This document shows positions 1 through 64,000 of a DNA stretch of 64,000 nucleotides, one piece after another (within the stretch, counting starts at the first letter, position 1; each line of letters opens with the position of its first letter). The notes below the pieces were generated by a model, which was not told the origin of the DNA, made no database searches, and worked only from the letters and a program-made list of their open reading frames with translations. The position numbers and the translations under genes were made by a program. Source of the DNA: a virus; the IMG/VR virus record IMGVR_UViG_3300042691_015471, positions 3,498 to 67,497 of that record; one strand, given 5' to 3'.

Positions 1-3000
1 GACTACGAGTACAGCACATTTTCTCCGCTGTCAGAACTTGCCAACTACAACACACTAAACGAAACGACTAAAAAATATATTGAGGTAATAATACCTTCTG
101 GTCAGAAGATTGAGCAGGATGTTATCAAGATAGAGATAGCTGTTAGGTTTGTTGTGGGTGGTGCATATAGTATTGTCAAAACTTTCGACAACAAAACCGA
201 TTTTGAAATCCACAACTCAGGGGCAACAACTCCTTTGAAGTTTGATTTCTACAATGATGCTGTAGGTCTTGCAGTTTCTAACGACCAATCCTTCAAGCCG
301 TTTGAGGCTATACCGTTGAAATCTGAAACGCTAGAGATTGCAAGGAACAGACTGTTCTTGGCAAACAATACTGATGGGTACGAAGCGCCTAAAACAACGT
401 CCCTAGACAAAGCTATAGTTGAAGGAGGAGGAGCAACCTACTATGCACTTTGGACAGTCATAAATTATATTACTTTCCTGGATCAGCCTGGGGACAGTTT
501 GATATTGTACATAGGTAACATTGGCGCAGCTAGTGGTTACTACTATGCAACAGTGTACAATGAAATGCAGAACCCGCCATCTACGGTGGACTTCACTATA
601 ATGACCAAGGTTGGTGATACTATCCAGGATATTCAGGCTTCTGGCGAAATACCTATTAAAGAGTTTATAAATGCAGTGACAATACCTGGTGCTGTAACGG
701 TTCAGAATGCACCTGCTAGTCCTAGTATTGCTAATGATACTGCATACAAAAGCGATTCATCTTACAGGCTTGGTGTTGTATTCTATGATGACCTTGGTAG
801 GAATAGTGGTGTTGTCACAAGGGATGACCTAAAGGTTGTTACGCCAGACAGGACTTATTCTGCTGTGTCATACTATACAGGGATCAGCTGGACATTGAGC
901 AATGTGAGTGCAGAGTCAGAGATTCCTGCATGGGCAAAGTACTACTCAATAGTGATGACCAAGAATCTTAGGACATCATTCTTTTTGCAGTCCAGGGTGA
1001 CCACATTAAAGTGGGTAACTAAGAATACCAATGGTGAGTATGTAATACAAAATAGCTACGATCCAACACACTTTGGTTTAGCTGTTGACATATCGGCTTT
1101 GGTTGGTATTGGATATGGTTATAAGTACCAAGAGGGCGATCTGATCAAGATATACCCACAGACCGGAAACCCTGTGACATTGTCTGTCAAGGATGAGTTT
1201 GGTAGCAATATAATCTGTGACAACAGTAGTGTATCTGGTACTGCTCTTTATGAAATATTTACTCCTTATATTCAAAATATCAATGAGCCGTATTTTGAGC
1301 GTGCTCAGGTTTACCCTGTACTTAATCCTGGTAAATCCAACAGGGCGTACACAGCTATAGCTGGTCAGATTAAGGGGGACATAACAATAATGCAACGGAC
1401 TGCCGGAGTATCTACTTACAGTACCGAGGCAATGTCTCCATCAGATCTTAACTGGAGGAACTGGAACACCAATGCAGGTAGGAGCAATATCGTAATAGAC
1501 GCTAGAACTGCAAATAAAAGGACAAGCGTATCTTTTTCAAATGTCATTGTACTTGGTTCTCAGACCAATGGTTTGTCAACATTTGAAGTTTTTGATCAGA
1601 CGCAATTACCATACGAGCTAAGCTCAATTCAGAAGCTTCAGTTAGTTAGTAAGATAGAGGCAGAGGGAACAATCATGCTTGCCATTGGCGAGCAAGAAAC
1701 CGCATCTATGTACTTAGGAGAGTCTCAGGTGTTTGACAATACCGGATCTTCCTTCCTTGCGAAAAGCTCGGGGGTTATAGGTAATGTCAACGTATTGAGA
1801 GGATCATACGGAACCATCAACCCGGAGAGTGTTGTCAGGTATCAGGGTAATGTGTATTGGTTTGACGCAAACAAGGGAGCTGTTGTAAGCTACTCACAGA
1901 ACGGACTGTTTCCAATCTCATCAAACAAGATGTTTAAATACTTCCGTAAGGTTGGCCAAGACATCTTGACTAAGAATCTGAAGTTTTTTGGAGGGATAGA
2001 TCCATACCATAATGAGGTGTTGATGTACGCTCCAAGGAAATCAGCCATCCCTGAGGGAGCAAGGTTATTGGATATGGAGATTGCTTCTAGCTCATACTCA
2101 TTTACTACAATCAATCCTACCTCAACTATAGTGGTACAGGGAAGCGCTTCTTATACGTTTACAGGTAGCGCTATTGGTCCTAACCAATCTGTTGTGACAG
2201 GTTCTACTGGTGCTGTAACATACTCTTATTCCGGCACCGGTGCTACCACGTATGGTCCAACCGCAACTAGGCCAACTCAAGCTGGGACTTACCAGGTGGT
2301 TGCCACAGTTGCTAGTGACGGTATTTATAATGCAGCTACATCGGCTCCATTCCCATTCTCTGTTCAAGTGGCGCTTCTTCCATCTACAATTGCAGTAGTT
2401 GGTGTGTCCTCTTACACTTTCACTAGTGGTCAGTTAGGACCTAACCAGTCCGTGGTTACCGGATCTACCGGTGCTGTTACGTATTCGTATGTGGGTGTTA
2501 GTGGAACAACTTACGGACCAAGTACTACTAGGCCTACTCAGGTTGGTAGCTATAGTGTTACAGCCACTGTCGCCAAGGACGCAACATACGACACAGCAAC
2601 GTCTGCTCCTTTCCCATTTGCAATTGCTGAAGCATTCGTATTCGATGCCGACTACATGTTGTTGACTTATCAGTTTACTGATGGATTAGACCTCGATACA
2701 AGAACTCGTATTGTAGTTCCTGATATTGGACAGGATGCTCAGACTAAGTATGTTGGATGGGGAGTGAGTTCTGTATGGCCTGCCACAGGAACGCCAATAT
2801 TGGATTGGGGTGGCGATAACACGGGCACCGGCTTTGAATCTGTATTGATCAATGTGGCACAACTGAAAGCTCAGTATCCATCTGCAACAAATATGATAGC
2901 TGATCTTAGGGCGTTCTGGTTCAATACACAAGGATTCAACCCGGTGAATGTAGCAGCAACTTTGTGGAAGGGTGGCACTCCTGTCAAACAAGGGGGAGGT

Positions 3001-3198
3001 GGCAGTCCTGCATACAGCTTTACCAACCCGACAGCACAGTCAACATTGAACATTAGTTCTGTTGGTAAGGTTATCACGTCATTAGGATTGCCAAACAAGT
3101 CCCAGAGTTCGGGTGACCGTGTGGCAACATTGACATATAACCTCCAGACAAATACTGGTTCATTTAGTACAACAGACACAACAACACCTAGTGTATGA
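1..3198 (+). CDS. Tail stabilisation/nozzle-like virion protein, N-terminal part (starts before the window), with two MBG-like Ig repeats and an extra C-terminal domain
   Basis: Frame is open from base 1. Motifs YRLGVVFYDDLGRNS, YGTINPES, YWFDANKGAV and GGIDPYHNE resemble Bacteroidota podophage stabiliser proteins. An ~85-aa repeat occurs twice at ~2122-2630. Confidence 0.65.
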   Translation, partial: DYEYSTFSPLSELANYNTLNETTKKYIEVIIPSGQKIEQDVIKIEIAVRFVVGGAYSIVKTFDNKTDFEIHNSGATTPLKFDFYNDAVGLAVSNDQSFKPFEAIPLKSETLEIARNRLFLANNTDGYEAPKTTSLDKAIVEGGGATYYALWTVINYITFLDQPGDSLILYIGNIGAASGYYYATVYNEMQNPPSTVDFTIMTKVGDTIQDIQASGEIPIKEFINAVTIPGAVTVQNAPASPSIANDTAYKSDSSYRLGVVFYDDLGRNSGVVTRDDLKVVTPDRTYSAVSYYTGISWTLSNVSAESEIPAWAKYYSIVMTKNLRTSFFLQSRVTTLKWVTKNTNGEYVIQNSYDPTHFGLAVDISALVGIGYGYKYQEGDLIKIYPQTGNPVTLSVKDEFGSNIICDNSSVSGTALYEIFTPYIQNINEPYFERAQVYPVLNPGKSNRAYTAIAGQIKGDITIMQRTAGVSTYSTEAMSPSDLNWRNWNTNAGRSNIVIDARTANKRTSVSFSNVIVLGSQTNGLSTFEVFDQTQLPYELSSIQKLQLVSKIEAEGTIMLAIGEQETASMYLGESQVFDNTGSSFLAKSSGVIGNVNVLRGSYGTINPESVVRYQGNVYWFDANKGAVVSYSQNGLFPISSNKMFKYFRKVGQDILTKNLKFFGGIDPYHNEVLMYAPRKSAIPEGARLLDMEIASSSYSFTTINPTSTIVVQGSASYTFTGSAIGPNQSVVTGSTGAVTYSYSGTGATTYGPTATRPTQAGTYQVVATVASDGIYNAATSAPFPFSVQVALLPSTIAVVGVSSYTFTSGQLGPNQSVVTGSTGAVTYSYVGVSGTTYGPSTTRPTQVGSYSVTATVAKDATYDTATSAPFPFAIAEAFVFDADYMLLTYQFTDGLDLDTRTRIVVPDIGQDAQTKYVGWGVSSVWPATGTPILDWGGDNTGTGFESVLINVAQLKAQYPSATNMIADLRAFWFNTQGFNPVNVAATLWKGGTPVKQGGGGSPAYSFTNPTAQSTLNISSVGKVITSLGLPNKSQSSGDRVATLTYNLQTNTGSFSTTDTTTPSV
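2122..2630 (+). repeat. Tandem duplication of an ~85-aa MBG/Ig-like domain
   Basis: STIxVxG...GPNQSVVTGSTGAVTYSY...TYGP..TRPTQ.G.Y.V.ATVA.D..Y..ATSAPFPF occurs twice. Confidence 0.8.
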
Positions 3199-3386
3199 CA
3201 ATAAAAGAAGCAATGGCTTTCGTGTACAGCACTCTTGGAGATGTTGTGCTGGTAGAGCGAGACGAAGACAGAAACATATTCAGCTCGGGAGCTGGGCACA
3301 TGGTTGTCATCATGGATGGTGATAACGGTTTGTACAGTCCTGTATTTCAAACCCTAGAAGAAGCACAAGCATGGTTGCCTCAATAA
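3195..3386 (+). CDS. Small hypothetical protein
   Basis: 63-aa ORF; ATGA overlap with the upstream gene. Confidence 0.55.
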   Translation: MTIKEAMAFVYSTLGDVVLVERDEDRNIFSSGAGHMVVIMDGDNGLYSPVFQTLEEAQAWLPQ

Positions 3387-4132
3387 ACATATCAGTAACA
3401 GAAGGTAAGGAGTACAAGGTGACAGCACCTGCTGGGATTACTGTCAAGTATAATGGCGAGACGGTGACCTCCACATTTATTGCTGTCGCTAGCGTGAACC
3501 AGATCCTATTGGTTTCAGAGTTTGTACAGAGTGGACAGATTCAGGTTATTGAAATAGTTCGGGGGTATTACGATGCTTATGATGCGCAAGGCGGGGTATG
3601 GGCATATCAACCAAGCCTAGACAAATGGACTAGCCAATACAGCTTCAGACCTGAGTGGATGACACTGGTAGGGAATCGGTTGGTTTCTTTCAGAGATGGC
3701 AGACCTTATATACATGACAACGCTACCAGGAATACCTTCTATGGGCAGGCATATGATTCAGTGGTGGCCTTCAACCACAATGAGGCTGGTAATGTAACCA
3801 AGGCATATTTGACTGTATCGGTAGAGGGATCTAAGCCGGACATAGTTCACTCCCGAACTGAGGTGCCGTTCGTTCAGAGCTCAGACATAAGGCTTGATGA
3901 GTTCCAGGTAACAGAAGGTGTTAACTATGCCGGTATTCTAAGGGATAGGTTAAGCCCCAACGTATCTGGATCCTATGAGCAGAAGTTACTTAAGGGGGAC
4001 AGGATGCGTGGCGAGATTGGTAAGTTCCAGGTAAACTACACACTACCCACAACAGAGAAGAATCTTAAGCTTTTCAACATAGGTTTCAACATTAGCCGGG
4101 GTCACAATACCATACCCCAAAATGGAGAATAA
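3371..4132 (+). CDS. C-terminal part of the tail stabiliser/nozzle-like protein
   Basis: KWTSQYSFRPEWM...RNTFYG...VSVEG...RMRG matches the usual C-terminal end of this protein family, as recalled. Confidence 0.6.
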   Translation: MVASINISVTEGKEYKVTAPAGITVKYNGETVTSTFIAVASVNQILLVSEFVQSGQIQVIEIVRGYYDAYDAQGGVWAYQPSLDKWTSQYSFRPEWMTLVGNRLVSFRDGRPYIHDNATRNTFYGQAYDSVVAFNHNEAGNVTKAYLTVSVEGSKPDIVHSRTEVPFVQSSDIRLDEFQVTEGVNYAGILRDRLSPNVSGSYEQKLLKGDRMRGEIGKFQVNYTLPTTEKNLKLFNIGFNISRGHNTIPQNGE

Positions 4133-4161: not shown

Positions 4162-4782
4162 ATGAACCCACTATCAGCAATAGGAGGAGCCGCTCAGATA
4201 GGCACAAGCATATTCAACATTTTCCAAGGAGCGAAGATGATGAAGGATGCCAAGAAGATTAAGCCGGACTATTTCGGTATTGATGATTCTAGGCTTAAGG
4301 GCATGGAGAGTCAGTACGCCAAGGATATGCTTGGTCGTGCTCAAAGTCAGCTTAATGCAAGAATGCCTGGTGCTGCAGCTCGGGAGAGACAAATCCAGGG
4401 CGCAAGAGCAGGTACTCAAGCTGCCATAGCTAGGGGAGCAGTTGACCCAACCATGGCCATGCAGGCAATGCTTGCTTCTCAGGCGCAAGGTGACGATCAG
4501 ATCAACAATCAGTTCATGATGGAGAATCAGTTCCAACAGCAGAGGGAAGCTAACCTGATGAACGCCCAGGGTGTAATGATTTCAGAAAGGGATAAGGCGC
4601 TGCAGGAAAAGAATATGAAGTACCAAATGGACATGTCTCAGAAGAATGCGCTTCGCAGTGCAGGACAGCAGACTATTTCAAGCGCAGGTAGTTCGTTGGC
4701 TGGTTCGTTTATGGGCCTAGGTGCGCAGAAAGACGCTAACAATAGAGCTGCTATGAATTATTTCGCATCCATGATGGGATAG
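4162..4782 (+). CDS. Internal virion/ejection protein (Gly/Ala/Gln/Met-rich)
   Basis: Composition, hydrophobic GA-rich N-terminus, first of three ORFs of increasing size after the tail genes. Confidence 0.6.
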   Translation: MNPLSAIGGAAQIGTSIFNIFQGAKMMKDAKKIKPDYFGIDDSRLKGMESQYAKDMLGRAQSQLNARMPGAAARERQIQGARAGTQAAIARGAVDPTMAMQAMLASQAQGDDQINNQFMMENQFQQQREANLMNAQGVMISERDKALQEKNMKYQMDMSQKNALRSAGQQTISSAGSSLAGSFMGLGAQKDANNRAAMNYFASMMG

Positions 4783-4796: not shown

Positions 4797-6605
4797 ATGT
4801 TTGAATTACCTAAAGCAATAGAAACCGATACGACACCTGTCAAGCTTCTCTATCAAGCTGCAGAAAATGCTCGTGCAGAACAGCAGCAGATGATGCAGTT
4901 GGCTATGAAGAATGAGCAGACCAGGCGTGAAGCGTTTGGTGGTGCACAGAAACAGCTATTCGATATTGCTAGTGCTCAGAATGTTCCTGCCGAGGTACAG
5001 CGCCAAATCCTTACACAGGGTCTCAACGAACTCACAAACCTTTACAAGAACAGGAAGGATGTAAAGAGTGGCGATTTTAGTATGATGGCAATGAATACCC
5101 TGGTCAAGGCAAAGGGTGACTCAACAGCATTCCAACAGTATCTAGGTGGCGGAGAAAAGTTTATTGCAGACCTGAAAGAGAAAGGATATGATGAGGTAAA
5201 TCTTAAGACAGCTTTATCTAATAGTATGTTTGACGAGCAGATGGTTAATACTCCTGCAGGTCAGCAAGTCGTTCGTGTACCTAAGGATCCTACAAAGCTT
5301 GGAGATCCGCTTCAGTTTTTAGCTAAGGAAGTTGATGACAATAACAAAAAGTATTTAGATCGTACGAAGTCAAGCAAGCAGTTGCAGACAACAGTCAGTG
5401 ATTACAAGCCTGCAGAGTATAAGTTTACTGATAGCCAAGACTTGACAGGCAACAAGACTGTAAAGGTTTCATATACTGAGAAGTCATATCCATGGACAAG
5501 AACTCAAGAGATTAATCAGAGTGGTCAGAAGGTAAAGATAAATGTGCTTGATACGGAGACTGAGGATATTGGAGGACAGAAAGTGCCAATCCTTTCCAAG
5601 AAGGCATACGAGTTTTTTTCAAGGAATCCCAACATCACTGTTGCTAAAGAGGTAGATGCTATGGGTACTGACTATATTGATGATCACAACAGAAAGCTTG
5701 GTATCAATCCTCAGCAGATAACAGCTGAAAATTTCAGCCAAATAGCTGAGCAGTTCCCTGGTGCTATCAATCCTTTTGATAACGGGAACAGGATGATCTT
5801 CAGCAGGCTGGCATTAACCAAGATGCTTGACCCGCAGTTTGGAAAGTTTGGCGATCCTAATGTTACAATCGATAGGGCTAAGCCTAACGTAACCAATGTA
5901 TACAGCAATAATGAACTGTATACTAGGACAGGTACCTTAAGACCTGAAGCGAAGTTCCCTACTACATGGGCGCAGATTGTCAACCAAGATAGGGAAATCA
6001 TGACCATCGCTGATGACGTTTCGTTTCAGTTCGGGGGCAAAACTCTTACAGGTAAAAAGACAGGTGACAGGGCTCAAGGTCAAATCATCAAGGATAACGG
6101 TAAGAGGGCGACAGTGCTGTCAAGACCTGAAGAACCGGGTGTGATATATGTGGCAGAGATTGAGGATAACGAGATTACAGATAACGTGATAAAGTTGTCA
6201 GGGAAGGAAGCTATTGACTACGGAGCAAAGATATCAGGAGCAAATGGATCAGACGTTAAGACCTTCAATAAATTATACTCTAGCTCTACCAAGACTGTTG
6301 TCCCAATGAGTGACGCTGACAAGGCGAATGTTTCAGTCAATCTGAATCTTCAAGCAGAGAAAGAAGAAGGTAAGGCATTGCTTGGCTCTGCTAGTCAGAT
6401 TAGAGCATTGGGTGCAGGAGAGACAAAGAACATCAACAACGCTAGGGTAAAGTTGAATGGTAAGGAAGTAGTGATTAAAGCTATCCAAAGGATAGATGGG
6501 ACTCTATGGAAATCTCCAGTTGAGGTTACACTACAGGATGGAAGTAAGATGACATTTGATAGTAGAGACGAGTTTATAAATACCCTAATACAATCAAACA
6601 AATAA
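4797..6605 (+). CDS. Probable internal virion/ejection protein
   Basis: 602 aa, helical N-terminus, position between the small and giant ejection-type proteins. Confidence 0.5.
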   Translation: MFELPKAIETDTTPVKLLYQAAENARAEQQQMMQLAMKNEQTRREAFGGAQKQLFDIASAQNVPAEVQRQILTQGLNELTNLYKNRKDVKSGDFSMMAMNTLVKAKGDSTAFQQYLGGGEKFIADLKEKGYDEVNLKTALSNSMFDEQMVNTPAGQQVVRVPKDPTKLGDPLQFLAKEVDDNNKKYLDRTKSSKQLQTTVSDYKPAEYKFTDSQDLTGNKTVKVSYTEKSYPWTRTQEINQSGQKVKINVLDTETEDIGGQKVPILSKKAYEFFSRNPNITVAKEVDAMGTDYIDDHNRKLGINPQQITAENFSQIAEQFPGAINPFDNGNRMIFSRLALTKMLDPQFGKFGDPNVTIDRAKPNVTNVYSNNELYTRTGTLRPEAKFPTTWAQIVNQDREIMTIADDVSFQFGGKTLTGKKTGDRAQGQIIKDNGKRATVLSRPEEPGVIYVAEIEDNEITDNVIKLSGKEAIDYGAKISGANGSDVKTFNKLYSSSTKTVVPMSDADKANVSVNLNLQAEKEEGKALLGSASQIRALGAGETKNINNARVKLNGKEVVIKAIQRIDGTLWKSPVEVTLQDGSKMTFDSRDEFINTLIQSNK

Positions 6606-6608
6606 TTC

Positions 6609-9600
6609 ATGCCGGATCCTATTTTAGATTTGATTCTTAGACGCAAGGCTGCTAAGGGTAAGTTGAATAATCAGAGCTCACAGACTGTGACAATGATGTC
6701 TCCAGCAATTTCTGATGACGAATCATCGCAGACTAAGCTTGACTTGTTTGATATTGACAGAAAGATATCTATGCTAGGGTATAACCCTAACGATGCAGAA
6801 CAAAAGCTTGGAGACCTTCCCGACAATACTCCTGATTTCTTAGTTCATGATTTGTTGAATATAGAGAATCCTGTTGATTTAATTAGGAAGAAGGCTGCTA
6901 TAAAATGGCAAGCACCTTTAGTCAAAAGTGTTGAAAGCATACTAGACCCTGCCCTTAGGAGTAAGGCAATGGAAGAGTTCGACTATATCTACAAGGGCAT
7001 TACTGGTGCTAAGGGTGAGAAATCAAACTACTATCAAAACGCCATCTCAAGTACTAAGGCAGCTGTTGACATTATAAACAAATATAATGGCAGTGGTGAC
7101 AAGGATGAAATGCTTGAAAACCTTAGAATTAATTCAGAGTATGGATTGGCTCAATCATTGATGCAAGATCCATCTGCACAACAACGCTGGGCAGACATAG
7201 GTCTTAATCCAATTCAAGGGATTGCCTTAGATATAAAAGAACTGTTCAGCCCGGAAGGAAAAGGTTACAAGGAACAGGTTGTAAAAAAAGCTGTTTTGCC
7301 TGAGGCAATAAGCGAGCAGAATTTCAAGAAGGCTCAGCTTGAGCGTGAGGGCATCAGCATCCTTGGAAAAGAGATAGACTATCTTCTTGAAAGCAAGTCA
7401 GGTGCCGTAAAGAAGGCAGACGAATTCTATAAGCAGAACGAGGGTAAGCTTGCTGAGCTGGGTGAACTTATCAAGAAAGATTCAAAGCTTTCTGAGGAGA
7501 TGAAGCAAAATCTTACTGGATTTCATACAGAATATAAGCAGGCGATTGAAGGCAAGGATGGAGATGTATTTATCAGTCCGTACAACTTTGATGTGCTCAA
7601 GGCAAAGGTCGAAGACAAAACTGCAAATGCATCTGAGGTTCGTGAGTATAACAATCGTGTAGGCAAACTTAATCAAATAGTCTCCAAATACAAAGGAGAC
7701 TTTGATGCTGCCAAAGAAAACAATGTTGAGCAAAACTCGGCTGTTCGTGAGTACAACAAGATTGTAAATAAAATCCAAGAATCCTATCAATCAGTAAAGG
7801 ACACGGGTAAGCTTTCTGCATGGGCAGAATACCTAGCCAAACAAAAGGGTACACTTGGTGAAAGGTATCCTGAGTACAAGCAACAGGAGTTAGAAGGACT
7901 AGTTAAAGATATTGCAGGTGATAATGTTGGTCTTGGCAAAAAGACTGTATTCCGTTATGCAAATTCTATAGGTGCAGAAACTGTTGATGCAATCCGTAAG
8001 GTATGGAACAACCTGACAATATGGGATGGCGATAAGCTGAGAGATGTAGAGATGGGTGATGCATATCGTAGGCGTATTGAGGATGTGATTATGGGATACG
8101 AGACAGGAACTCAAATGGTGAAAGATGAGCGTACTGTAATACCTGTAGTGCAGAAGGATATCCAAGACGAGCTGAATAAGATTAAGAACAGCAATCTGTC
8201 TGAAGAAGAAAAGTATCAGCAGAACTATAAGATAGTCTCAAAAGCATTTGACGATAAGAAGGTACAGTATGTAGCCAATCCAAAGTATGGCAAATACAAT
8301 ATAACAGCGGATTCCGTCTTGAACACCGTGTCTAGTATGTCAGCACAATTTGTTGGTCAGATGGTGCAAACATATTTGGGAGGTGGATTTGGAAACGTAT
8401 CAAAAGCCAGGAGGTTGCTCACAAGGGGCAGCACTGTCTTCGGTCAGGTATTTGGCAGAGAGTATGACTTAGCTGTACAGCGTGGTGATTCAAACCCATT
8501 TGAACAAGCCTCGACAAAAGCTGGTATTGAGATGCTGAGTGAGTTTGTTTTTGATGACGTTGAGTTTGTCAAGAAAATGTCTCCTGCATTCGCAAGGATT
8601 GCAGGTGATATGAGTCAAGCTGAATGGAAGATGCTCACGTCTGGCAAAATAAAAAGCAACATAGGTAGGGAAATTGCTAGTTCTTTAGAAGCTCTTTTTA
8701 AAGAAGGTACTGTTGAAGAGGGTCTAGCGCAGCTCGGGGGGAACTTTGCAGACAAGTATATGTTCGGTAAAGACAATGATATCACAGAGGGTCTTGACGT
8801 AGCAGTGCTTGCAGGTACTATAGGTTTTGCACCAATGGCACTCATAGGCCTTCCATTAAAATACAGATCAGCCAACATGAGTGACAAGCTCATGATGTAC
8901 CAAGCAGGGTACAAAGCTGACCAGGTTATCGAAGAGCTGAATCGCCAGGTTGGTTATGGCGCTATAACTGCCGAAGAGGCGAAGCAAAGGATAGAGGCTG
9001 TAAAGACCATGAAGGAAGTTGTTGGCGGTATGAGTATGTACGATGCCAATGGCAAACCACTTACAGACAATCAGAAGGCACAGTATGCCTGGAACGAATA
9101 CACCAAGATCAAGGCCAAGAATATTGAGAACTTACCTGAGCAGCAAAGACAAGAGGTTGAGCAGGTAGCTGCAGAAGCAGATCAAAGTAGTAGTAACATC
9201 TTAAACGGTACAGACAATGCCACTTATGAAAGCACAAGGCCCATGCAAGGAATGCCTGCAGAAGGCGGTAGCGTACAACCTCAAGCAACTGTCGAAGGAC
9301 AACAAGAAGAAGGACAAGCCACGCAGCCGACAGCAAATGTTGGCTATAGCGATGGCAGCGGCCAAGAGGTAGACATTGCGGAAGTTCCGCAAGGATTGAC
9401 AGCTATTGCTACCAAGGTGATAGGCGATGCAATCAACACTGCCAAGTCCCTGGTCAAGACCGGGATTAAGGTAAGGGTATTCCAAAACCAAGAGGACTTT
9501 GAAAGAGAATCTGCTAAGCTCGGGCAACAAGCTCGGGGGCAGGGTGTTTTCATGTCCGATGGTAAGCAGGTCCTGATCAACCTGTCAAAGATTAACGAGG

Positions 9601-36586: not shown

Positions 36587-36611
36587 GGGGGTTAAACTCT
36601 ATAGTAGAGAG

Positions 36612-37058: not shown

Positions 37059-37065
37059 GGGGGGA

Positions 37066-57700: not shown

Positions 57701-58341
57701 CATTGTATGGAGTAGGAACAACCTATAACATAAACATATCTTCAACAAATGGCATTTACTTTAGAGATGCTACTGCTGATAGGGCAGGATTGAAAGCTGA
57801 TGTATTTAGATTTGAGAATAGTGTTTATACCAACATTGGTACAAGAGGCTTGCTTATTGGTTCATTTGCAGGTGCTACTAATGCATCAGCACTTCTAGAA
57901 GTAACTTCTACAACCAAGGGTTTCCTTCCGCCTCGGATGACAACAACTGAGAAGAATGCAATCGGTACACCTGCTGCTGGATTGGTGGTGTATGACAATA
58001 CGTTAACAGCGTTGAATGTTTACAACGGAACATCTTGGGTGACATTGGGTGCTTCTAGCGCATACAGCGTAGCATCTGTCACTACCACATACTCAGAGAC
58101 AGCAACATCAGGAACTAAAATCATTAAAGCAGATACAACAAGTGGAGCATTCACGATTAATTTACCTACTGCTGTGGGTAATACAGCAACAATCATCATC
58201 AAAAAAGTAGCTGGTTCGGGGGCGTTGACAATAGACGGAAACGGAACAGAAACAATTGATGGTGGTACAACAGCAACAATAAACAAGGTGTATGAATCTA
58301 TTACACTTATATCTGATAACTCAAACTGGCAAATAGTATAA
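51772..58341 (+). CDS. Large modular tail fibre/adhesin
   Basis: Gly/Thr-rich; repeated NIYT.DGTL, YKLDV.GTARV and GFLPPR.TTT modules; YadA-like NTAVG repeats. Confidence 0.75.
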   Translation: MPTVPSISFNVRYDLTGAPTLVLTDATTFPVGAVGIFTITQPDGYVRTGNFATPDITSSGGTLSTGLRLSSTGGVQCGTYNIKYEIRTTDLVISTFTRNFVFQYEPVGLVMKENFDVFTPNLSYSDSTIYTVPNYSNTAPTRLWTAVSIPTGTKTSTTAAINLQHNGSYYDAVYTITLASTLTYSHQTYAWLSIQETISKTVTAEACTPEPIEDLIPMIEVLRQKSIECNGDFPDFEKAQTLFSHLTDMLRVLLIGGATQEGIYDVYEDLMAILRNHVPCVHTNLPIPPYDLGDYAVSQFPIDAAFCQNVGDGVNTVYSISHNLNDDCVLVQVYEVTSGAQVLTDVTITSNNSVNVSFATAPATDAYKVVVHSGNGGMVGPGVAAGGTTGQYLRKTSATDYDTYWDTLNAADIPDLSATYMTKAVYDTDNDGIVDDAEKIAIIARNSTGSTIHKGKIVYLQGSTGNRPNILLAQANSEASSSKTFGVVVEDIAHNADGQVAAIGTLHDLDTRSNAPHPFTTDTLLDGDKVWLSATDAGYITRTPPVQPNHTVFIGFVARTTPSFGRIIYNIQNGFELDELHNVLITSAADKDILYYDLATGLWKNTAKSGWLGGTASQFVKGDGTLDSSTYLTTGTAASTYVALGGSYSNPSWITALAWSKITGAPAFLTTETDPIFTAHPAFGITGTKISNWDSAYGFTSAFPSQSGNSGKFLTTNGSALSWADVVSGVSSFNTRTGAVTLTSGDVTGALGYTPISTNIYTDNGTLTGDRTITMGAFTLSFEKDIFVNNNRVGRGNGNDFRTVVLGQLAGSSTTTGNQNVFVGFSAGNLATTANSNVLLGAFAGRIIDTGSGNTIVGHVSGYSLTSGTFNTFIGRQSGFGITTGIHNTIISTISSGSIGITTGSYNTVIGSQVSGLTATLSNNIILADGQGNIRIRAWDTGNVGIGTTTDAGYKLDVNGTARVSGDVTFDNAVYFRSTNGNNKFTIAANTGWITQISTGSWGSAAVKFGDGQFANILIGQSGDSPTGVASLDLRSNVLGLYLNRGTIATMPNLSAWQGVTLSIIGGTGYTNGTYSGVVATGNFTGSVNVSVTVSGGIVTGVFIFGGETKIQLGETFTVPAASIGGTGSGMSFTITAINNSNPAFTFYNTSTNLLTYWDGRNYASPIVSKLDRVLIGGIGLANATSILELSSTTQGFLPPRMTTTQRDAIASPATGLVIYNTTTLAANVYNGTSWVGMGGDNIYTADGTLSSTTRVLSYSVSGANENKLIFRNTGVTGGPNDDFIFQASTNTAPVLQIWNPNYGGVLNLGAGSVSFGGGRLNLATSGHDIRMQPGGVETARFFTSTGNVLIQTGGTFTDAGYKLDVQGTARVSGALYTGTTSNVGIWMLTETAIRGTATTGGNLYIDANSSLDGTGTIHLRGLVNSGRLTVSGNLTVTGAQIFVPFNGGLRVNQASNGNLFLDASLDFTGNVFARATSFVVELAGGVPTTFASAIVAFNSTTKGFLPPRLTTTERNAITSPATGLQVYNSTTNTNDFYNGTAWVSNAAGNIYTTDGTLTGNRTVTMGSNTLSFEKDVYINSQRIGKGAGNQTSNFAAGSQTLNANTTGNFNTAVGNTALRDNTTGSLNTAVGVSALLSNTDAFVNTAVGASTFMNLNSGSGNTAVGDDAGRYFTGSASLTTANNSIFIGRRSAALGNNQTNQIVIGNDATGLGSNTTVIGNSSTVTSAIYGRLLLGTTTDSGLYQLDVNGTARVSGMLTVNNLDGTFSVNRTGSNGSNSLTISPSNGTPATASAQNSIAIGASSQATVVGCISIGNGATATGEAATALGSVAGASGVAAIAIGYQSVAAANEFVAANYFYTIQNVYFGSGKIRNSQAGAGTAYTINGSGANGTNFAGGNITIAGGKGTGTGTAGDIIFSTATSTASGTTLQTLTDRVWIKGENGNVGIGASPNAAYKLDVNGTARFTDHIYIADTKSLYGVGTTYNINISSTNGIYFRDATADRAGLKADVFRFENSVYTNIGTRGLLIGSFAGATNASALLEVTSTTKGFLPPRMTTTEKNAIGTPAAGLVVYDNTLTALNVYNGTSWVTLGASSAYSVASVTTTYSETATSGTKIIKADTTSGAFTINLPTAVGNTATIIIKKVAGSGALTIDGNGTETIDGGTTATINKVYESITLISDNSNWQIV

Positions 58342-60617: not shown

Positions 60618-62768
60618 ATGAAGGTACTATCGGATATACTACACAAGGCTGGGATACTTAAGGAAGGTGCTGAGGCTTACAGCTCGGGGGGATACTCAGT
60701 TGTTGTAAGAAATGCAACAACTCAAAGGTTTGAGACGGTAGCTTCAACTGCGTTTGCGAATATCTATACTTCAAACGGAACCCTTACAGGGAATCGTACG
60801 GTAACCCTGTCTGGTAGTTATCTTGATATTGCTGGAACAACAACCACTAGGTTCTTCTCAACTGGCAACGTAACGGTCGGTGGTACTGTAGATGCCGGAT
60901 TCAAGCTTGATGTTAATGGCGAGATCCGTGGTGTGAGTAGAGTTTCTGCTTCGCTTGGTGGTCTTACAAACAACTGCCTATACACATACATATCAAACCA
61001 CTGCGGTAGTGCTGGTTATATTGGATTCGGGTTTGTAAACACTACCAATCCAGCGCTAGCTGATTCGGTGTTTGACATCTATCAGGGTCCTGTAGCTGCA
61101 CCGATTGCCAACCTTTTTAACATCAAGCATTCTCTTCTGAATGCAAGCTATGTTCAGCCTCAGGCAATCCTAGGCATCACTACCACTATAAATCAGTCTG
61201 CTACTGCTACTGGCGATATCAGGGGGATCTACTATAACCCAACGGTGACAAGTGTGATAGGTAATCACTATGCATGGGAGTCTACCTCAGGTAAGATCAA
61301 GGTATCAGACCTGTCCGGTACCGGATCAAGGATGGTAGTTGCTGACAGCTCGGGGGTATTATCCACATCCGCTCTACCTACATCTACTAATATATACAAC
61401 AGTGATGGTACACTGACAGGGAATAGGACGGTTGCCTTAGGTGGTTATAAGTTATCTGTAGGGGTTCCTACGACAAGCTTCGCTTCTGGCTCATTTGAAT
61501 TGGGCATTAATGCTGCTTCTGCGTTTAGCCAAGTAATTCACAACACTAATGGAGGAGGTGCAGGTGCAATTGTATTTGGCGCTAATAATAGGTACATGCA
61601 TATTGGTATGGCTGGAACTTCTCTAGCTTGGCCTGTGAATGGTGCGGCCTTTATACATAACACATACGCAGATTTATATTTCACTGGGGGTAGTTCTGGA
61701 CAACCGGGAACAGGAGATGTTATCATGACAATGTTCCGCTCCACTAAGAACGTCACCGTTGGAGGAATTACAGACTCCGGCTACAAGCTTGATGTGCAGG
61801 GGACAGCGAGGGTGACAGGAGCTGTGCGAGTAGATACGAATGGTTTTAACAGAACTGGAAGTGCAGGCTCAGGTTCAATATCTATTGGAAATGTAAGTGG
61901 TTTATCGACTGCAACTGCTGATGGTAGTATTTCTATTGGGTCAACTTCAAGTGCCACCGGGTTAGATTCTACTGCATTAGGTACTGAAGCAACTGCGTCA
62001 TCTCAATCATCTATTGCGATAGGGAGAGGTGCAATTTCAAATGGTGTTGGAGGAATTGCAATCGGAGTTGGAGCAAGAGCAAGTGGAACAGAATTAGTAA
62101 TCGGTAATCGTTGGCAACCTATTAATGAAGTATTCTTTGGGACTGGTAGCAATAGGTGGTCAGGTAATACACAGTTTGCTGGAGATGGCGCATCCTGTGC
62201 AATCAACGGTAGCGGTGCATTTGGTACAGACTTCGCTGGTGGTAACATTACCATCGCAGGTGGTAAAGGAACAGGCGCAGGTACTCCCGGTGACGTTATA
62301 ATCTCTACAGCAACAGCAACAGCTTCGGGAACAACCCTTCAATCTCTCACACAGAGGGTATGGATTAAGGGCGAGAATGGGAATGTAGGGATTGGTGCTA
62401 GTCCGAATGCTTCTTATAAACTAGACGTAGCAGGAACAGGCCGCTTCACCAACATGCTGTCCGTAATCACCACAGGAACAACCAACGAGGTTGCCCTGTT
62501 CAAGTCCACAGAACCATACATAACAGTCGAGGCAGCAGGTGGTTCTAACTCTGCATCCATCTTCCTCAAGCCTTCAACATCTAGTCAGAACGCAACCATC
62601 CAGAACAGGACGGGTGGTGGACTGGAGTTCTATGTGAACGCAGACTACACCAACGCCAAGATGACCATCAAGGGGACAACGGTTAATATCAGAAGTCTTC
62701 CAACCTCGGCAACGGGACTCAGCTCGGGGGATATATGGAATGACGGAGGAACACTTAAGGTAGCTTAA
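60618..62768 (+). CDS. Second modular tail fibre
   Basis: Shares modules with 51772-58341; C-terminal LPTSATGLSSGDIWNDGGTLKV. Confidence 0.75.
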   Translation: MKVLSDILHKAGILKEGAEAYSSGGYSVVVRNATTQRFETVASTAFANIYTSNGTLTGNRTVTLSGSYLDIAGTTTTRFFSTGNVTVGGTVDAGFKLDVNGEIRGVSRVSASLGGLTNNCLYTYISNHCGSAGYIGFGFVNTTNPALADSVFDIYQGPVAAPIANLFNIKHSLLNASYVQPQAILGITTTINQSATATGDIRGIYYNPTVTSVIGNHYAWESTSGKIKVSDLSGTGSRMVVADSSGVLSTSALPTSTNIYNSDGTLTGNRTVALGGYKLSVGVPTTSFASGSFELGINAASAFSQVIHNTNGGGAGAIVFGANNRYMHIGMAGTSLAWPVNGAAFIHNTYADLYFTGGSSGQPGTGDVIMTMFRSTKNVTVGGITDSGYKLDVQGTARVTGAVRVDTNGFNRTGSAGSGSISIGNVSGLSTATADGSISIGSTSSATGLDSTALGTEATASSQSSIAIGRGAISNGVGGIAIGVGARASGTELVIGNRWQPINEVFFGTGSNRWSGNTQFAGDGASCAINGSGAFGTDFAGGNITIAGGKGTGAGTPGDVIISTATATASGTTLQSLTQRVWIKGENGNVGIGASPNASYKLDVAGTGRFTNMLSVITTGTTNEVALFKSTEPYITVEAAGGSNSASIFLKPSTSSQNATIQNRTGGGLEFYVNADYTNAKMTIKGTTVNIRSLPTSATGLSSGDIWNDGGTLKVA

Positions 62769-63420: not shown

Positions 63421-63422
63421 TT

Positions 63423-63689
63423 ATGGCGAATACAGTCGTTGAGAATAAGATTAGAGCATACTTAACCCCCGGTCTGATAACATGTTTCGGAGTAGTCTCT
63501 TGGACATTGATCGATGAGATACGCACTGACGTGAAGTCGCTACTAGCGGCAAATGCTGAGGTGCAGGTAAAGATCCAGAATCTTGAGAAGAGGATGGATG
63601 GGTTAGAGAATGTGGTCTACTATTCTCAACGGCTGTTCGCTATTAAACCTGAAGAAATTGAAGTACCTAAGCGTAATAATTCTCGTTAG
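63423..63689 (+). CDS. Single-TM coiled-coil protein
   Basis: TM segment then heptad repeats. Confidence 0.5.
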   Translation: MANTVVENKIRAYLTPGLITCFGVVSWTLIDEIRTDVKSLLAANAEVQVKIQNLEKRMDGLENVVYYSQRLFAIKPEEIEVPKRNNSR

Positions 63690-64000
63690 TGCCATCTCCT
63701 GCAACCCTGTAAGGCAGGTGTTGAAGGACCAAGTCAAGTTTGATCAGGTTGCCGAAGAGGTTATTCGCAGGGGTTACTGTGCAAACGATACTACTGTTAT
63801 TACAGAACTTAAAGATACTGTCATCTACAAGGACAGCCTGGTTACGGTGATTGACTCCGTACCGTGCAAGGATTTTGACAGCACCATAAGAGGTGCCAGG
63901 ATTTCGGTCCGCTCGGGGGTACTAACCTATACAGCAAAGGACTCGATAGTATACCAAACCAAGACCATCACAAACTCAATACGGGACAAAGCTCTTGAGA
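63658..64000 (+). CDS. Lipoprotein, spanin-like (runs off the window end)
   Basis: TTG start; KYLSVIILVSAIS-C lipobox; frame open to 64000. Confidence 0.55.
   Translation, partial: MKYLSVIILVSAISCNPVRQVLKDQVKFDQVAEEVIRRGYCANDTTVITELKDTVIYKDSLVTVIDSVPCKDFDSTIRGARISVRSGVLTYTAKDSIVYQTKTITNSIRDKALE

What the first reader, a model, noticed from the sequence alone, without database searches (positions are those of the whole stretch)
1766..63919. Genome-wide, strand-biased 9-bp motif GYTCGGGRG (about 41 copies) embedded in all reading frames
Found by eye on + at 1766, 3283, 3557, 4378, 6029, 8732, 9531, 9985, 11670, 14088, 16428, 18115, 19197, 20424, 22982, 28457, 28828, 30263, 35451, 36583, 37055, 38517, 38774, 40296, 49365, 51944, 53604, 58214, 60682, 61348, 62722, 63911 (32 copies). 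On - at about 3850, 20417, 23364, 24332, 26218, 27866, 45182, 46839, 52394 (9 copies). A rough independent-base estimate at ~43% GC predicts about one copy in total. In genes it encodes SSG, VRG, FGG, LGG or ARG depending on frame, so selection acts on DNA rather than protein. It stays mostly on + across much of the minus-strand gene block, and it also occurs in terminators and at the 5' edge of three minihelices. Inference: a protein-recognised signal about every 1.5-2 kb, such as a Chi-like anti-nuclease site, a KOPS-like translocation cue for ejection or packaging, or a self-mark bound by a phage protein.
Basis: partly seen in the sequence, partly recalled or inferred. Interest (0 to 1): 0.85.

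Follow-up and report, generated by a model that had tools for sequence, protein, structure and literature searches.

The report
Polar nine-base word in phage genomes
A group of uncultivated phages of Bacteroidota-type bacteria carries 20 to 45 copies of one nine-base DNA word, mostly on one strand and maintained by selection on the DNA itself, which looks like a private directional signal whose reader is not yet known.

Summary
GYTCGGGRG occurs 41 times in the window (32 top, 9 bottom), against 0.78 expected. The whole 67.5-kb circularly assembled phage has 44 copies. A shuffle that keeps every protein and its codon usage leaves about 7, of which 6 lie outside the shuffled codons.

The same word is the most enriched k-mer in seven related full-length phage records from other assemblies. 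Pooled over the eight genomes there are 216 top-strand and 73 bottom-strand copies. Every contig sharing this clade's small terminase or exonuclease has it. Outgroup phages have 0-1 copy and no substitute word.

Positions 1 and 3-7 are nearly invariant, and the extended form is CAGYTCGGGRG. Sites are kept more often than neighbouring 9-mers, but their places turn over.

The polarity runs genome-wide and does not follow transcription. In 807 Bacteroidota genomes searched, the word sits at background level, so a host Chi or KOPS is not supported.

My best reading (about 0.33) is a Chi-like, phage-private word that controls an enzyme travelling along the DNA. Rivals are T5/tf-type nick sites, a primase word, a packaging cue and stoperators. 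No reader protein was identified. The terminase-linked HNH was shown to be insufficient.

The parts
1766..1774 (+). motif copy GCTCGGGGG, sense, in ORF ending 3198
3283..3291 (+). motif copy, sense, ORF 3195-3386
3557..3565 (+). motif copy, sense, ORF 3371-4132
3850..3858 (-). motif copy, antisense, ORF 3371-4132
4378..4386 (+). motif copy, sense, ORF 4162-4782
6029..6037 (+). motif copy, sense, ORF 4797-6605
8732..8740 (+). motif copy, sense, giant ORF 6609-16544
9531..9539 (+). motif copy, sense, giant ORF
9985..9993 (+). motif copy, sense, giant ORF
11670..11678 (+). motif copy, sense, giant ORF
14088..14096 (+). motif copy, sense, giant ORF
16428..16436 (+). motif copy, sense, giant ORF, 100 nt before next gene start
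18115..18123 (+). motif copy, sense, ORF 16971-18212
19197..19205 (+). motif copy, sense, M15 peptidase ORF 18965-19435
20417..20432 (.). two overlapping inverted copies forming the palindrome CCCCCGAGCTCGGGGG followed by a T-run: terminator-like hairpin at the end of the + gene block
   Evidence: z -2.65, 4 of 200 shuffles fold as well
22982..22990 (+). motif copy, intergenic in minus-strand block
23364..23372 (-). motif copy, sense, dNMP kinase ORF 23217-23759
24332..24340 (-). motif copy, sense, RusA-like ORF 24178-24519
26218..26226 (-). motif copy, sense, primase-helicase ORF 24739-26484
27866..27874 (-). motif copy, sense, exonuclease ORF 27656-28642
28457..28465 (+). motif copy, antisense, exonuclease ORF
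28828..28836 (+). motif copy, antisense, Erf/Rad52-like ORF 28639-29379
30263..30271 (+). motif copy in a region of doubtful small ORFs
35451..35459 (+). motif copy, antisense, ORF 35195-35518
36583..36591 (+). motif copy, intergenic, 64 nt upstream of the ATG at 36519 of a minus-strand gene, in the opposite orientation
37055..37063 (+). motif copy, intergenic; its last bases form the 5' arm (on the - strand) of a hairpin 37013-37058
   Evidence: z -2.71
38517..38525 (+). motif copy directly 3' of the minus-strand gene 38527-38850
38774..38782 (+). motif copy, antisense, winged-helix-like ORF 38527-38850
40296..40304 (+). motif copy, sense, ORF 39801-40376
45182..45190 (-). motif copy, antisense, large terminase ORF; place kept in several relatives
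46839..46847 (-). motif copy, antisense, portal ORF
49365..49373 (+). motif copy, sense, ORF 48485-49426
51944..51952 (+). motif copy, sense, ORF 51754-58341
52394..52402 (-). motif copy, antisense, ORF 51754-58341
53604..53612 (+). motif copy, sense, ORF 51754-58341
58214..58222 (+). motif copy, sense, ORF 51754-58341
60682..60690 (+). motif copy, sense, fibre-like ORF 60618-62768
61348..61356 (+). motif copy, sense, ORF 60618-62768
62722..62730 (+). motif copy, sense, ORF 60618-62768
63911..63919 (+). motif copy, intergenic, 12 nt before the point where the contig's 69-bp end overlap begins
42534..42899 (+). candidate reader: PD-(D/E)XK endonuclease (121 aa). Present in all 8 motif-bearing genomes and not found in the 2 outgroups.
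   Evidence: Pfam PDDEXK_5 E 5.5e-16. Gene-sharing table. Homologues found only in clade contigs, 14 of 14. Model pLDDT 78.7. Best PDB fold is the I-Ssp6803I homing endonuclease (TMq 0.71), followed by Hjc resolvases.
40503..40751 (+). HNH endonuclease (82 aa) with the pattern CxxC..HH..N..CxxCH. It is conserved in the clade but is not sufficient for the motif.
   Evidence: Pfam HNH 33.3 bits. Alignment. Of 75 non-clade loci with a 60-73% identical HNH, 72 have no site.
27656..28642 (-). candidate travelling enzyme: YqaJ/RecE-type exonuclease, full length in all 8 genomes
24739..26484 (-). candidate travelling reader: primase-helicase of the T7 gp4 type. Identity is 56-75% within the clade and 40% in outgroup G411, which has no motif.
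43460..44065 (+). candidate reader: putative small terminase, named from its position before the large terminase. It is kept at 58-86% identity even where the large terminase was exchanged.

Best explanation
GYTCGGGRG (extended form CAGYTCGGGRG) is a selected DNA word private to one clade of about 60-69-kb podovirus-like phages of Bacteroidota-type hosts. I read it as working like Chi. In this reading it is a directional 'self' word, recognised on one strand by an enzyme that travels along the DNA from an exposed end. The candidates are an end-resecting nuclease or helicase-nuclease. Most copies face the same way round the genome, and copy number matters rather than position. The word would then let a nuclease spare or recombine phage DNA while host DNA is consumed. 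Shown: enrichment, DNA-level selection, clade specificity, sequence specificity, genome-wide polarity, turnover of sites, and absence of enrichment in the bacterial genomes sampled. Inferred: that a travelling enzyme reads it, which enzyme that is, and the protective or recombinogenic outcome.
For: Enrichment survives protein- and codon-preserving nulls: 44 observed against 7.3. The same word is top-ranked in six genomes. It is present in 22 of 22 small-terminase loci and in 34 of 34 loci with an exonuclease at least 51% identical. Outgroups have 0, 1, 0 and 0 copies and no other enriched word. The specificity is sharp and asymmetric, with alternatives at positions 1 and 3-7 reaching at most 8 against 163. 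Pooled over eight genomes there are 216 top and 73 bottom copies, p 1.4e-17. The bias persists outside ORFs of at least 100 aa (58:12). In minus-strand ORFs the ratio is 28:30, where a pure sense-strand rule predicts 19% top (p 6e-7). Around the exonuclease gene, 286 sites lie on the strand opposite to it and 120 on its strand (my sum of the rows; several of those loci are near-duplicates). Sites are conserved above background: 16 of 28 are kept between G000 and G001, against 16% for any 9-mer. Places are nevertheless replaced in more distant relatives (2 of 12, 0 of 12) while counts stay at 31-36. Spacing does not differ from random (pooled P 0.22). This fits a signal that must be met soon from wherever the enzyme starts. 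Bottom-strand copies are also far above chance, as expected if the word works in both directions but is needed more in one. The layout parallels phages rich in host Chi: LLS has 20 top and 3 bottom, Tritos-type phages 21/6, MD8 32/0, and P1 has 50 sites in 94.8 kb. In those phages the top strand is defined with the terminase genes at the left (passages of PMC12315714). The phage has a nuclease plus strand-annealing module and no recognised anti-RecBCD gene, which is the class that often carries many Chi in that paper. A dNMP kinase is present in 7 of 8 genomes. From general knowledge of T4 and T5, that is compatible with salvage of degraded host DNA. The host-lineage genomes searched are not enriched, which a private self word predicts.
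Against: No reader was identified, and no helicase-nuclease of the RecBCD/AddAB type was found among the ORFs I scanned. No phage-encoded Chi-like system is known to me, and my literature searches did not show one. A lambda-Exo/RecE-type exonuclease is not known to obey a sequence signal of this kind. Clustering near the terminase-proximal right end, which is typical of Chi-rich phages, is not significant in the two closed genomes (KS p 0.45 and 0.84). Bottom-strand copies are three times denser in minus-strand ORFs (0.33/kb) than elsewhere (0.10-0.11/kb). That sense-strand component is not predicted by this reading. The host is unknown. It is inferred only from distant terminase relatives and from one host-like gene whose homologues are mostly in Chitinophagaceae.
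Confidence: 0.33

Rival explanations
1. The word marks strand-specific nick sites ('localized single-strand interruptions'), as in phages tf, T5/BF23 and phiKMV. A phage nuclease made late in infection would nick packaged DNA at the word.
For: This is the closest documented look-alike. Phage tf has 14 nicks at the 9-bp word 5'-TACT/RTGMC-3', which also has two two-fold degenerate positions. All 14 are on the top strand of a 46-kb genome with two convergent gene sets. Its relatives carry 8-9 copies, again on one strand (passages of PMC3517423). T5 and BF23 carry nicks in one strand (PMC10644984). The clade has a private PD-(D/E)XK protein whose best fold match is a sequence-specific homing endonuclease. 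It also has an HNH in the terminase operon. Terminase-adjacent HNH proteins can be site- and strand-specific nickases (PMC3592412: abstract, sections 9 and 24).
Against: A quarter of the copies (73 of 289) are on the other strand and are themselves far above chance. The known nick words are on one strand only. Overlapping or adjacent inverted pairs exist: 20417/20424 here, and pairs 12 nt apart in G413 and 41 nt apart in G416. Nicking both members of such a pair would approach a double-strand break. The HNH is not linked to the word, because 72 of 75 unrelated loci with a 60-73% identical HNH have no site, and three complete HNH-bearing phages have 1, 0 and 0. Density is 2-6 times that of tf.
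Confidence: 0.17
2. The word is the template recognition site of the phage's own primase-helicase, so the genome must carry priming sites at about Okazaki-fragment spacing on the lagging-strand template of the dominant fork direction.
For: The phage has a T7-gp4-type primase-helicase and I found no DNA polymerase among the ORFs scanned. The primase-helicase is 56-75% identical across the clade. The outgroup G411, with a 40% identical one, has no word. Mean spacing of 1.5-3 kb, random placement, genome-wide polarity independent of transcription, and a functional minority on the other strand all fit.
Against: From general knowledge, characterised replicative primases read 3-5 bases, not 9-11, and no phage is known to be enriched for its primase word. 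A 16.2-kb stretch without a site in G003, and gaps of 7-16 kb between top-strand sites in the eight genomes, would mean very long fragments. The sense-strand component is not explained.
Confidence: 0.15
3. It is the Chi of the real host's RecBCD/AddAB, accumulated by the phage as in coliphages LLS and P1 and Pseudomonas phage MD8.
For: The layout evidence is the same as for the best explanation. By eye, GCTCGGGG matches the E. coli Chi GCTGGTGG at 6 of 8 places. That is a lead, not a test.
Against: The word is at background in 5 named candidate genomes (11-54 copies per 3-6.4 Mb, equal to the reversed-word control). It is also at background in 401 genomes drawn evenly from the phylum and 401 from the family of a Ferruginibacter genome. 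No genome comes anywhere near one copy per 5 kb. In the genome with the highest ratio to the control (G207), the word equals the Markov expectation, 31 against 24.5-26.9 in 400 kb, and its orientation is mixed within contigs. The word is constant in phages of 34-53% G+C, which suggests several hosts.
Confidence: 0.08
4. The word is a packaging signal: a dispersed recognition or direction cue for the small terminase or the translocating motor, marking phage DNA for encapsidation in one direction.
For: The putative small terminase co-occurs with the word in 22 of 22 loci. It is retained at 58-86% identity even in four loci whose large terminase is of another type (51-55%) (G416). Outgroups have a 25-35% identical small terminase and no word. 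The top strand is the direction of the terminase and structural genes.
Against: From general knowledge, known pac and cos sites are single loci, and no dispersed packaging word is documented. All 22 loci are members of the same clade, so the co-occurrence is not independent. A quarter of the sites point the other way.
Confidence: 0.09
5. The word is a transcription-linked site: a stoperator-like repressor site, an anti-termination or pause word on the non-template strand, or a promoter element.
For: In + ORFs, 81% of copies are in sense, and bottom-strand copies are densest where they are in sense. There is a mild excess 50-100 nt upstream of the next start codon: 14 of 137 against 3.5% of random positions. 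An integrase-family gene and a Cro/CI-type HTH gene are present. Cluster A mycobacteriophage stoperators are asymmetric, number more than 20 per genome and are orientation-dependent (passages of PMC9283540).
Against: 38 of 44 copies lie inside ORFs. About 80% show no relation to gene starts. In the early, minus-strand region and outside ORFs the word points against transcription (58:12). The Cro/CI-type gene is detected in only 3 of the 7 other motif-bearing genomes, and also in outgroup G411. The orthologues of the small HTH candidates are only 26-66% identical, although the word itself is invariant.
Confidence: 0.06

Closest known systems
Chi-rich phages (E. coli phage LLS, phage P1, Pseudomonas phage MD8)
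   Same: They carry an asymmetric G-rich 8-9-base word at about one copy per 1.3-2 kb. It sits in coding DNA, is strongly biased to the top strand when the terminase genes are drawn at the left, and has a minority of copies on the other strand. These phages have no anti-RecBCD gene (passages of PMC12315714).
   Different: There the word is the host's Chi and is abundant in the host genome. Here no sampled host-lineage genome is enriched. Right-end clustering is not significant here. The per-phage tables of that paper are in supplements that I could not see.
Localized nick (sci) sites of phages tf/LUZ24-like, T5/BF23 and phiKMV-like
   Same: They are phage-private, short, asymmetric words (9 bp with two degenerate positions in tf). 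They are far more frequent than chance, strand-biased regardless of gene direction, and shared with small changes by related phages. Their function is unknown (PMC3517423).
   Different: Known nick words lie on one strand only and number 4-14 per genome. Here 25% of copies are on the other strand and counts are 19-44. Nicks could not be tested, because every sequencing run found is held only as contigs.
Stoperators of Cluster A mycobacteriophages
   Same: They are asymmetric sites, more than twenty per genome, private to a phage group, and orientation matters (PMC9283540).
   Different: Stoperators lie in promoters and short intergenic spaces and follow the direction of transcription. Here 86% of copies are inside ORFs and the polarity does not flip with the minus-strand block.
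KOPS / FtsK-orienting polar sequences
   Same: They are G-rich polar words read by a translocase.
   Different: KOPS converge on dif and are a feature of the host chromosome. Here there is no convergence point and no host enrichment. The KOPS sequence and its properties are recalled, not taken from a call.

Membership tests
Chi (RecBCD/AddAB hotspot) | Over-represented in the host chromosome and co-oriented with replication | tested here: not met
   807 Bacteroidota genomes were searched and counts resemble the reversed-word control. In G207 the word equals the Markov expectation and its orientation is mixed within contigs. The host itself is unknown, so this holds only for the genomes searched.
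Chi (RecBCD/AddAB hotspot) | Polar: most copies in the orientation met from one DNA end | tested here: met
   216 top and 73 bottom copies in eight genomes. The same sign is seen in every genome.
Chi (RecBCD/AddAB hotspot) | Recognised by a helicase-nuclease, which is attenuated and loads a recombinase | not testable with these tools
   This needs enzyme assays. No RecBCD/AddAB-like gene was seen in the phage ORFs scanned.
Chi-rich phage layout | Copies clustered towards the terminase-proximal right end | tested here: not met
   KS test against a uniform distribution gives p 0.45 (G000) and 0.84 (G413). Visible clusters in G002-G004 were not tested, because those records are not closed.
Localized nick (sci) sites | A physical single-strand break at the word in virion DNA | not testable with these tools
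   All 7 runs found are kept only as assembled contigs.
Localized nick (sci) sites | All copies on one strand | tested here: not met
   19-32% of copies are on the bottom strand in each of eight genomes.
Localized nick (sci) sites | A short asymmetric word shared by related phages and absent from others | tested here: met
Localized nick (sci) sites | A phage-encoded site-specific nickase | tested here: inconclusive
   The HNH is not linked to the word. The PD-(D/E)XK protein with an I-Ssp6803I-like fold is private to the clade, but its activity is unknown.
Stoperators | Located in promoters and short intergenic spaces | tested here: not met
   38 of 44 copies are inside ORFs.
Stoperators | Orientation follows the direction of transcription | tested here: not met
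   In minus-strand ORFs the ratio is 28 top to 30 bottom. Outside ORFs it is 58:12, with most copies pointing against the early genes.
Stoperators | A cognate repressor conserved with the sites | tested here: not met
   The Cro/CI-type HTH gene 29657-30010 is detected in G001, G002 and G004 only, and also in outgroup G411.
KOPS | Orientation switches at a dif-like convergence point, and the word is enriched in the host | tested here: not met
   There is no consistent switch in eight genomes and the host genomes are not enriched.
Phage promoters (T7-type, T4 late-type) | Upstream of genes and oriented with them | tested here: not met
   Only 14 of 137 top-strand copies in + ORFs lie 50-100 nt before the next start. 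The rest are distributed like random positions.

The most novel reading that the evidence does not exclude
The word is a phage-private Chi. The phage marks its own DNA with a dense, directional nine-base word that tames a nuclease it encodes or reprograms. Host DNA, which carries the word only by chance, is then degraded for nucleotides, while phage DNA is spared and channelled into recombination-dependent replication. This would be self/non-self discrimination by sequence density, invented by a virus.
Probability: 0.2. Interest if true: 0.85.

Novelty: new variant of a known kind. Interest (0 to 1): 0.68.

Why it matters
Dense polar words are rare and informative. Chi, KOPS, uptake sequences and the still unexplained nick sites each revealed a machine that reads DNA directionally. 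Here a whole clade of uncultivated phages maintains such a word by selection while their likely hosts lack it, and these phages are widespread in metagenome assemblies. Identifying it would either explain what phage nick sites are for, or reveal a viral self-recognition signal, or show a primase or terminase with unusually long specificity. The word is also a practical marker for this clade: 3-22 copies in each locus of 8.7-22 kb, against 0-1 in unrelated phage genomes.

Tried and rejected
**Close or integrated relatives**
- Nucleotide search of the GenBank phage collection with the giant gene found no match.
- A large-terminase protein search found only relatives at 32% identity or less, among Flavobacterium, Cellulophaga and Bacteroides phages.
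- A prophage search in one genome per species with the large terminase found no relative.

**Links to a reader gene**
- HNH to word: rejected.
- Large terminase as reader: rejected, because it is exchanged in G416, L230, L231 and L241 while the word stays.
- Strand-annealing protein and replication initiator as readers: rejected, because their cores are exchanged in some members.
- Scans with the small terminase, exonuclease and PD-(D/E)XK alignments returned clade members only, plus one 28%-identical exonuclease locus with no site. They therefore give no independent test.

**Virion RNA polymerase of the crAss type**
- There is no DFDxD motif in the three largest ORFs.
- There is no PDB sequence match for the two giant proteins.
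- The phi14:2 preprint reports no common motif upstream of early transcripts (passages).

**Physical ends**
- The 69-bp and 89-bp end repeats of G000 and G413 lie at different places near the variable fibre genes. I treat them as assembly breaks.

**Other checks**
- Regular spacing was rejected.
- The sequencing-run search listed no RNA holder, and all runs are contigs.
- In a literature search for the word itself, 287 papers hold one of five strings. The 20 listed are unrelated (primers, human, plant and animal-virus work), and I did not inspect the rest.
- 'Chi site' + Bacteroidetes + AddAB returned 2 papers. By their listings, neither is about a Bacteroidota Chi.

Full report
**1. The observation**

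The pattern GYTCGGGRG matches 41 times in the window. Dinucleotide-preserving shuffles expect 0.78 (sd 1.00), and none of 100 shuffles reaches 41.

The window is bases 3498-67497 of a single 67,497-bp viral record. The ends of that record overlap by 69 bp. The whole record has 44 copies, 35 + and 9 -.

An order-3 Markov model built from the genome itself is a conservative null. It still gives 18 observed against 0.11 expected for GCTCGGGGG, and 11 against 0.15 for GTTCGGGGG.

I ran two, each 200 times.
- Shuffling synonymous codons within each gene gives a mean of 7.26 copies (sd 1.05, maximum 10).
- Shuffling codon order gives 6.58 (maximum 10).
- The observed count is 44, and six sites lie outside the shuffled codons and are kept by construction.

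Of the 44 copies, 30 are in sense, 8 in antisense and 6 intergenic or partly so. The sense copies use all three frames (11, 13, 6) and encode SSG, ARG/ARE, VRG/VRE and xLGG. Selection therefore acts on the DNA.

**2. What the genome is**

Protein-family scans show the following genes.
- Large terminase 44046-46046 and portal 46043-48415.
- A T7-gp4-type primase-helicase, 24739-26484 (-).
- A YqaJ/RecE-type exonuclease, 27656-28642 (-).
- An Erf/Rad52-type annealing protein, 28639-29379 (-).
- A RusA-like resolvase, 24178-24519 (-).
- A replication-initiator C-terminal domain, 26453-27112 (-).
- A dNMP kinase, an integrase-family recombinase, a ParB-like protein and a Cro/CI-type HTH.
- A lysozyme and an M15 peptidase.
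- An 82-aa HNH, 40503-40751, and a 121-aa PD-(D/E)XK protein, 42534-42899.
- ORFs of 3311 and 2195 codons.

I found no DNA polymerase and no RNA polymerase signature. There is no DFDxD motif and no PDB sequence match for the giant proteins.

The nearest cultured relatives by large terminase are Flavobacterium, Cellulophaga and Bacteroides phages, at 32% identity or less. A DUF4846 gene (40776-41435) has cellular homologues at 50-60% identity. Among the 80 loci returned, most are in Chitinophagaceae assemblies. I take the host to be a member of the Bacteroidota, perhaps of the Chitinophagaceae. This is an inference.

**3. The word is a property of a clade**

In five full-length relatives the counts (top:bottom, with the terminase forward) are 34:9, 27:9, 23:8, 30:14 and 14:5. 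The word read backwards occurs 0-1 time in each. Two more relatives give 23:8 (G413, a closed record) and 30:11 (G416). Pooled over eight genomes the counts are 216 and 73, binomial p 1.4e-17.

The same 7- and 8-mers top an unbiased k-mer ranking in all six genomes tested.

| Set of loci or records | Copies of the word |
|---|---|
| 22 of 22 loci with a small terminase at least 58% identical | 3-20 each |
| 34 of 34 loci with an exonuclease at least 51% identical | 3-22 each |
| 1 locus with a 28% identical exonuclease | 0 |
| Outgroup records sharing only structural genes (large terminase 47%, 37%, about 32-34%) | 0, 1, 0, 0 |

The G+C content of the clade loci ranges from 0.34 to 0.53. I also fetched the two outgroup records with the 47% and 37% identical terminases (G411, G412) and ranked their k-mers. 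Neither has any other comparably enriched word.

**4. Anatomy of the word**

These figures are pooled over six genomes.
- Positions 1 and 3-7 are almost invariant. Each alternative base occurs at most 8 times, against 163 on the top strand.
- Position 2 is T 92, C 71, G 19, A 13.
- Position 8 is G 127, A 36.
- Position 9 is G 163, A 15.
- The two bases before the word are C (55%) and A (60%). The full form is therefore about CAGYTCGGGRG.
- Bottom-strand copies have a weaker consensus at position 8 (A 25, G 29).

**5. Conservation and turnover**

G000 and G001 are 77.8% identical over the alignable 66% of the genome. Between them, 16 of 28 aligned sites are kept as the word, against 16% for any 9-mer. 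Three of the 12 'lost' sites are the G-variant at position 2.

| Relative | Aligned sites kept | Copies in that relative |
|---|---|---|
| G002 | 2 of 12 | 36 |
| G003 | 0 of 12 | 31 |
| G004 | 10 of 19 | 44 |
| G005 | 3 of 8 | 19 |

Number is maintained and place is not.

Spacing does not differ from random (pooled P 0.22). G003 has a 16.2-kb stretch without any site. Only a small excess lies 50-100 nt before the next start codon, 14 of 137 against 3.5% of random positions.

**6. Polarity**

Genes run + (structural), then - (replication and early), then + again.

| Territory (eight genomes) | Top | Bottom | Top density per kb | Bottom density per kb |
|---|---|---|---|---|
| + ORFs of at least 100 aa | 130 | 31 | 0.41 | 0.10 |
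| - ORFs of at least 100 aa | 28 | 30 | 0.31 | 0.33 |
| Outside such ORFs (much of it the early, minus-strand region) | 58 | 12 | 0.53 | 0.11 |

A pure sense-strand rule is rejected for the minus-strand ORFs (p 6e-7). So is a pure top-strand rule (p 3e-8).

Around the exonuclease gene, 286 sites lie on the strand opposite to the gene and 120 on its strand. This is my sum of the rows, and several of those loci are near-duplicates.

The polarity is thus genome-wide and does not follow transcription. Bottom-strand copies are everywhere far above chance and are densest where they are in sense. I cannot fully explain this second component. One possibility is weaker selection on the bottom orientation, combined with a larger supply of near-matches on G-rich sense strands.

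**7. Host genomes**

The word is not enriched in any of these sets.
- Five candidate genomes (Ferruginibacter, two Chitinophagaceae, Niabella, Lacibacter... and one Vicingaceae): 11-54 copies per 3-6.4 Mb, equal to the control.
- 401 genomes drawn evenly from the phylum.
- 401 genomes drawn from the family of the Ferruginibacter genome.

The highest counts, about 400 per 3.6 Mb, come with equally high controls.

The genome with the best ratio to the control (G207: 173 against 43) has 59% G+C. In 400 kb of it the word equals the Markov expectation, 31 against 24.5-26.9. Its sub-words rank in the middle of all words, and orientation is mixed within contigs.

The phage density is thus roughly 100-200 times that of the low-G+C host candidates. 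This argues against a host Chi or KOPS, within the limits of an unknown host.

**8. Who could read it**

Eleven G000 genes are present in all eight motif-bearing genomes and not detected in the two outgroups. These are the exonuclease, the annealing protein, the replication initiator, the RusA-like protein, the recombinase, the DnaA-C-like HTH, the winged-helix protein, the HNH, the PD-(D/E)XK protein, the giant ORF (weak matches) and a 277-aa structural protein. The small terminase and the primase-helicase are present in outgroups but strongly diverged.

Some candidates can be excluded.
- The large terminase is exchanged in G416 and three other loci, and the word persists.
- The core of the annealing protein is exchanged in G004 and G413. 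The N-terminal part of the initiator is exchanged in G003, G005 and G416.
- The HNH is not sufficient. Of 80 loci with a 60-73% identical HNH, 5 belong to the clade and have 8-15 sites each. Of the other 75, 72 have none and 3 have 1-2. Three complete unrelated HNH-bearing phages have 1, 0 and 0.

The PD-(D/E)XK protein remains a candidate.
- Its homologues were found only in clade contigs, 14 of 14.
- Its model has a mean pLDDT of 78.7.
- The model is most like the homing endonuclease I-Ssp6803I (2ost, TMq 0.71, E 4.7e-7). Holliday-junction resolvases come next (TMq 0.54-0.63).

Because the clade members share the whole replication and early module, none of these associations is independent.

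**9. Comparison with what is known**

*Chi-rich phages.* The paper PMC12315714 gives top/bottom counts of host Chi, with the terminase genes drawn at the left (passages).

| Phage | Top/bottom or total |
|---|---|
| LLS | 20/3 |
| Tritos type | 21/6 to 7/2 |
| MD8 | 32/0 |
| P1 | 50 sites in 94.8 kb |

[quoted passage not shown] They are commonest in phages without an anti-RecBCD gene. The density, the strand ratio and the above-chance minority on the other strand are the same here. The host enrichment and the end clustering are not (KS p 0.45 and 0.84).

*Nick sites.* Phage tf has 14 nicks at 5'-TACT/RTGMC-3', all on the top strand of a genome with convergent gene sets. Its relatives have 8-9 copies on one strand, and the function is unknown (passages of PMC3517423). 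T5 and BF23 are nicked in one strand (passages of PMC10644984). This is the closest phage-private look-alike. Against it, 25% of the copies here are on the other strand, including overlapping inverted pairs.

*Stoperators* lie between genes and follow transcription (PMC9283540). That is not the case here.

*Terminase-adjacent HNH proteins* can be strand-specific nickases (PMC3592412: abstract and sections 9 and 24). The HNH here is not tied to the word.

**10. Verdict**

The following are shown:
- a real, strongly selected, sharply specified, genome-polar word;
- the word is private to a phage clade;
- it is absent as an enriched word from the bacterial genomes sampled.

The mechanism is not shown. 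I commit, at about one in three, to a Chi-like logic. In that reading the word is a directional signal, met by an enzyme travelling from a DNA end, that marks phage DNA as self.

| Rival | Weight |
|---|---|
| Nick sites | 0.17 |
| Primase word | 0.15 |
| Packaging cue | 0.09 |
| True host Chi | 0.08 |
| Transcription-linked site | 0.06 |

The remainder is for something not yet thought of. Supplementary tables of the cited papers were not seen.

Noticed in passing
window 34815-34943 (-): Rfam tRNA match of 36.3 bits (gathering score 29) spanning 129 nt. ARAGORN calls no tRNA anywhere in the window. It may be an intron-bearing or degenerate tRNA-like element between the ParB-like gene and the early genes.
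   Followed up: no
window 36170-36245 (-) and 36520-36600 (-): Early minus-strand genes are preceded by repeated leaders (..TCACCAAACA..ATG; direct repeat 36181-36205 / 36527-36551). One leader contains a T-arm-like GCGGGTTCGATTCCCGC.
   Followed up: partly
window 38890-39070: The non-coding stretch upstream of the first early gene holds repeated GGGTTAAGGG-type units (38893-38914 and 38938-38959) and is pyrimidine-rich on the - strand. It could be iterons, an origin or a promoter array.
   Followed up: no
G416 (L225-L228), L230, L231, L241: The large terminase is of a different type (51-55% identical) in four clade members, while the small terminase (62-76%) and portal (74-86%) stay clade-typical. 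This looks like an exchange of the large subunit alone.
   Followed up: partly
G004 (L029), G413 (L142); G003, G005, G416: Only the last 56-60 residues of the annealing protein are conserved in G004 and G413. Only the C-terminal 90-100 residues of the replication initiator are conserved in G003, G005 and G416. These look like domain-level exchanges inside the replication module.
   Followed up: partly
window 40776-41435 (+): A DUF4846 gene (Pfam E 5e-70) sits in the late operon and lacks the N-terminal 40-50 residues of its cellular homologues. Those homologues are mostly in Chitinophagaceae assemblies. It is present in 3 of the 8 genomes and looks like a host-derived auxiliary gene.
   Followed up: partly
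L001 (whole 22-kb locus): A second enriched, strand-biased word of the form CTGGCGGTG: TGGCGGT occurs 9 times against 0.7 expected, with 1 reverse-complement copy. L009 shows related ATGGCGG (7 against 0.8).
   Followed up: no
L132 (distant relative, large terminase 32%): GGAGGTG occurs 18 times against 1.4 expected, with none on the other strand. GTGGAGG and GAGGTGG behave likewise. I did not check whether this is a coding tandem repeat or a polar word of its own.
   Followed up: no
G003 positions about 7,300-23,500: A 16.2-kb stretch has no copy of the word in a genome with 31 copies. It covers the giant structural gene, which is only 27% identical to that of G000, and may be recently acquired DNA.
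   Followed up: no
G001 25710/25822, G002 35251/35365, G004 33155/33267: A pair of top-strand copies 112-114 bp apart recurs in three genomes.
   Followed up: no
window about 62,000-63,932: The contig ends of G000, G002 and G413 all map within about 2 kb of each other, beside the variable fibre-like genes. The end overlaps are 69 and 89 bp at different places. These are more likely assembly breaks in a variable region than physical termini.
   Followed up: partly
That is unusually high conservation for so mobile a small gene.
   Followed up: partly
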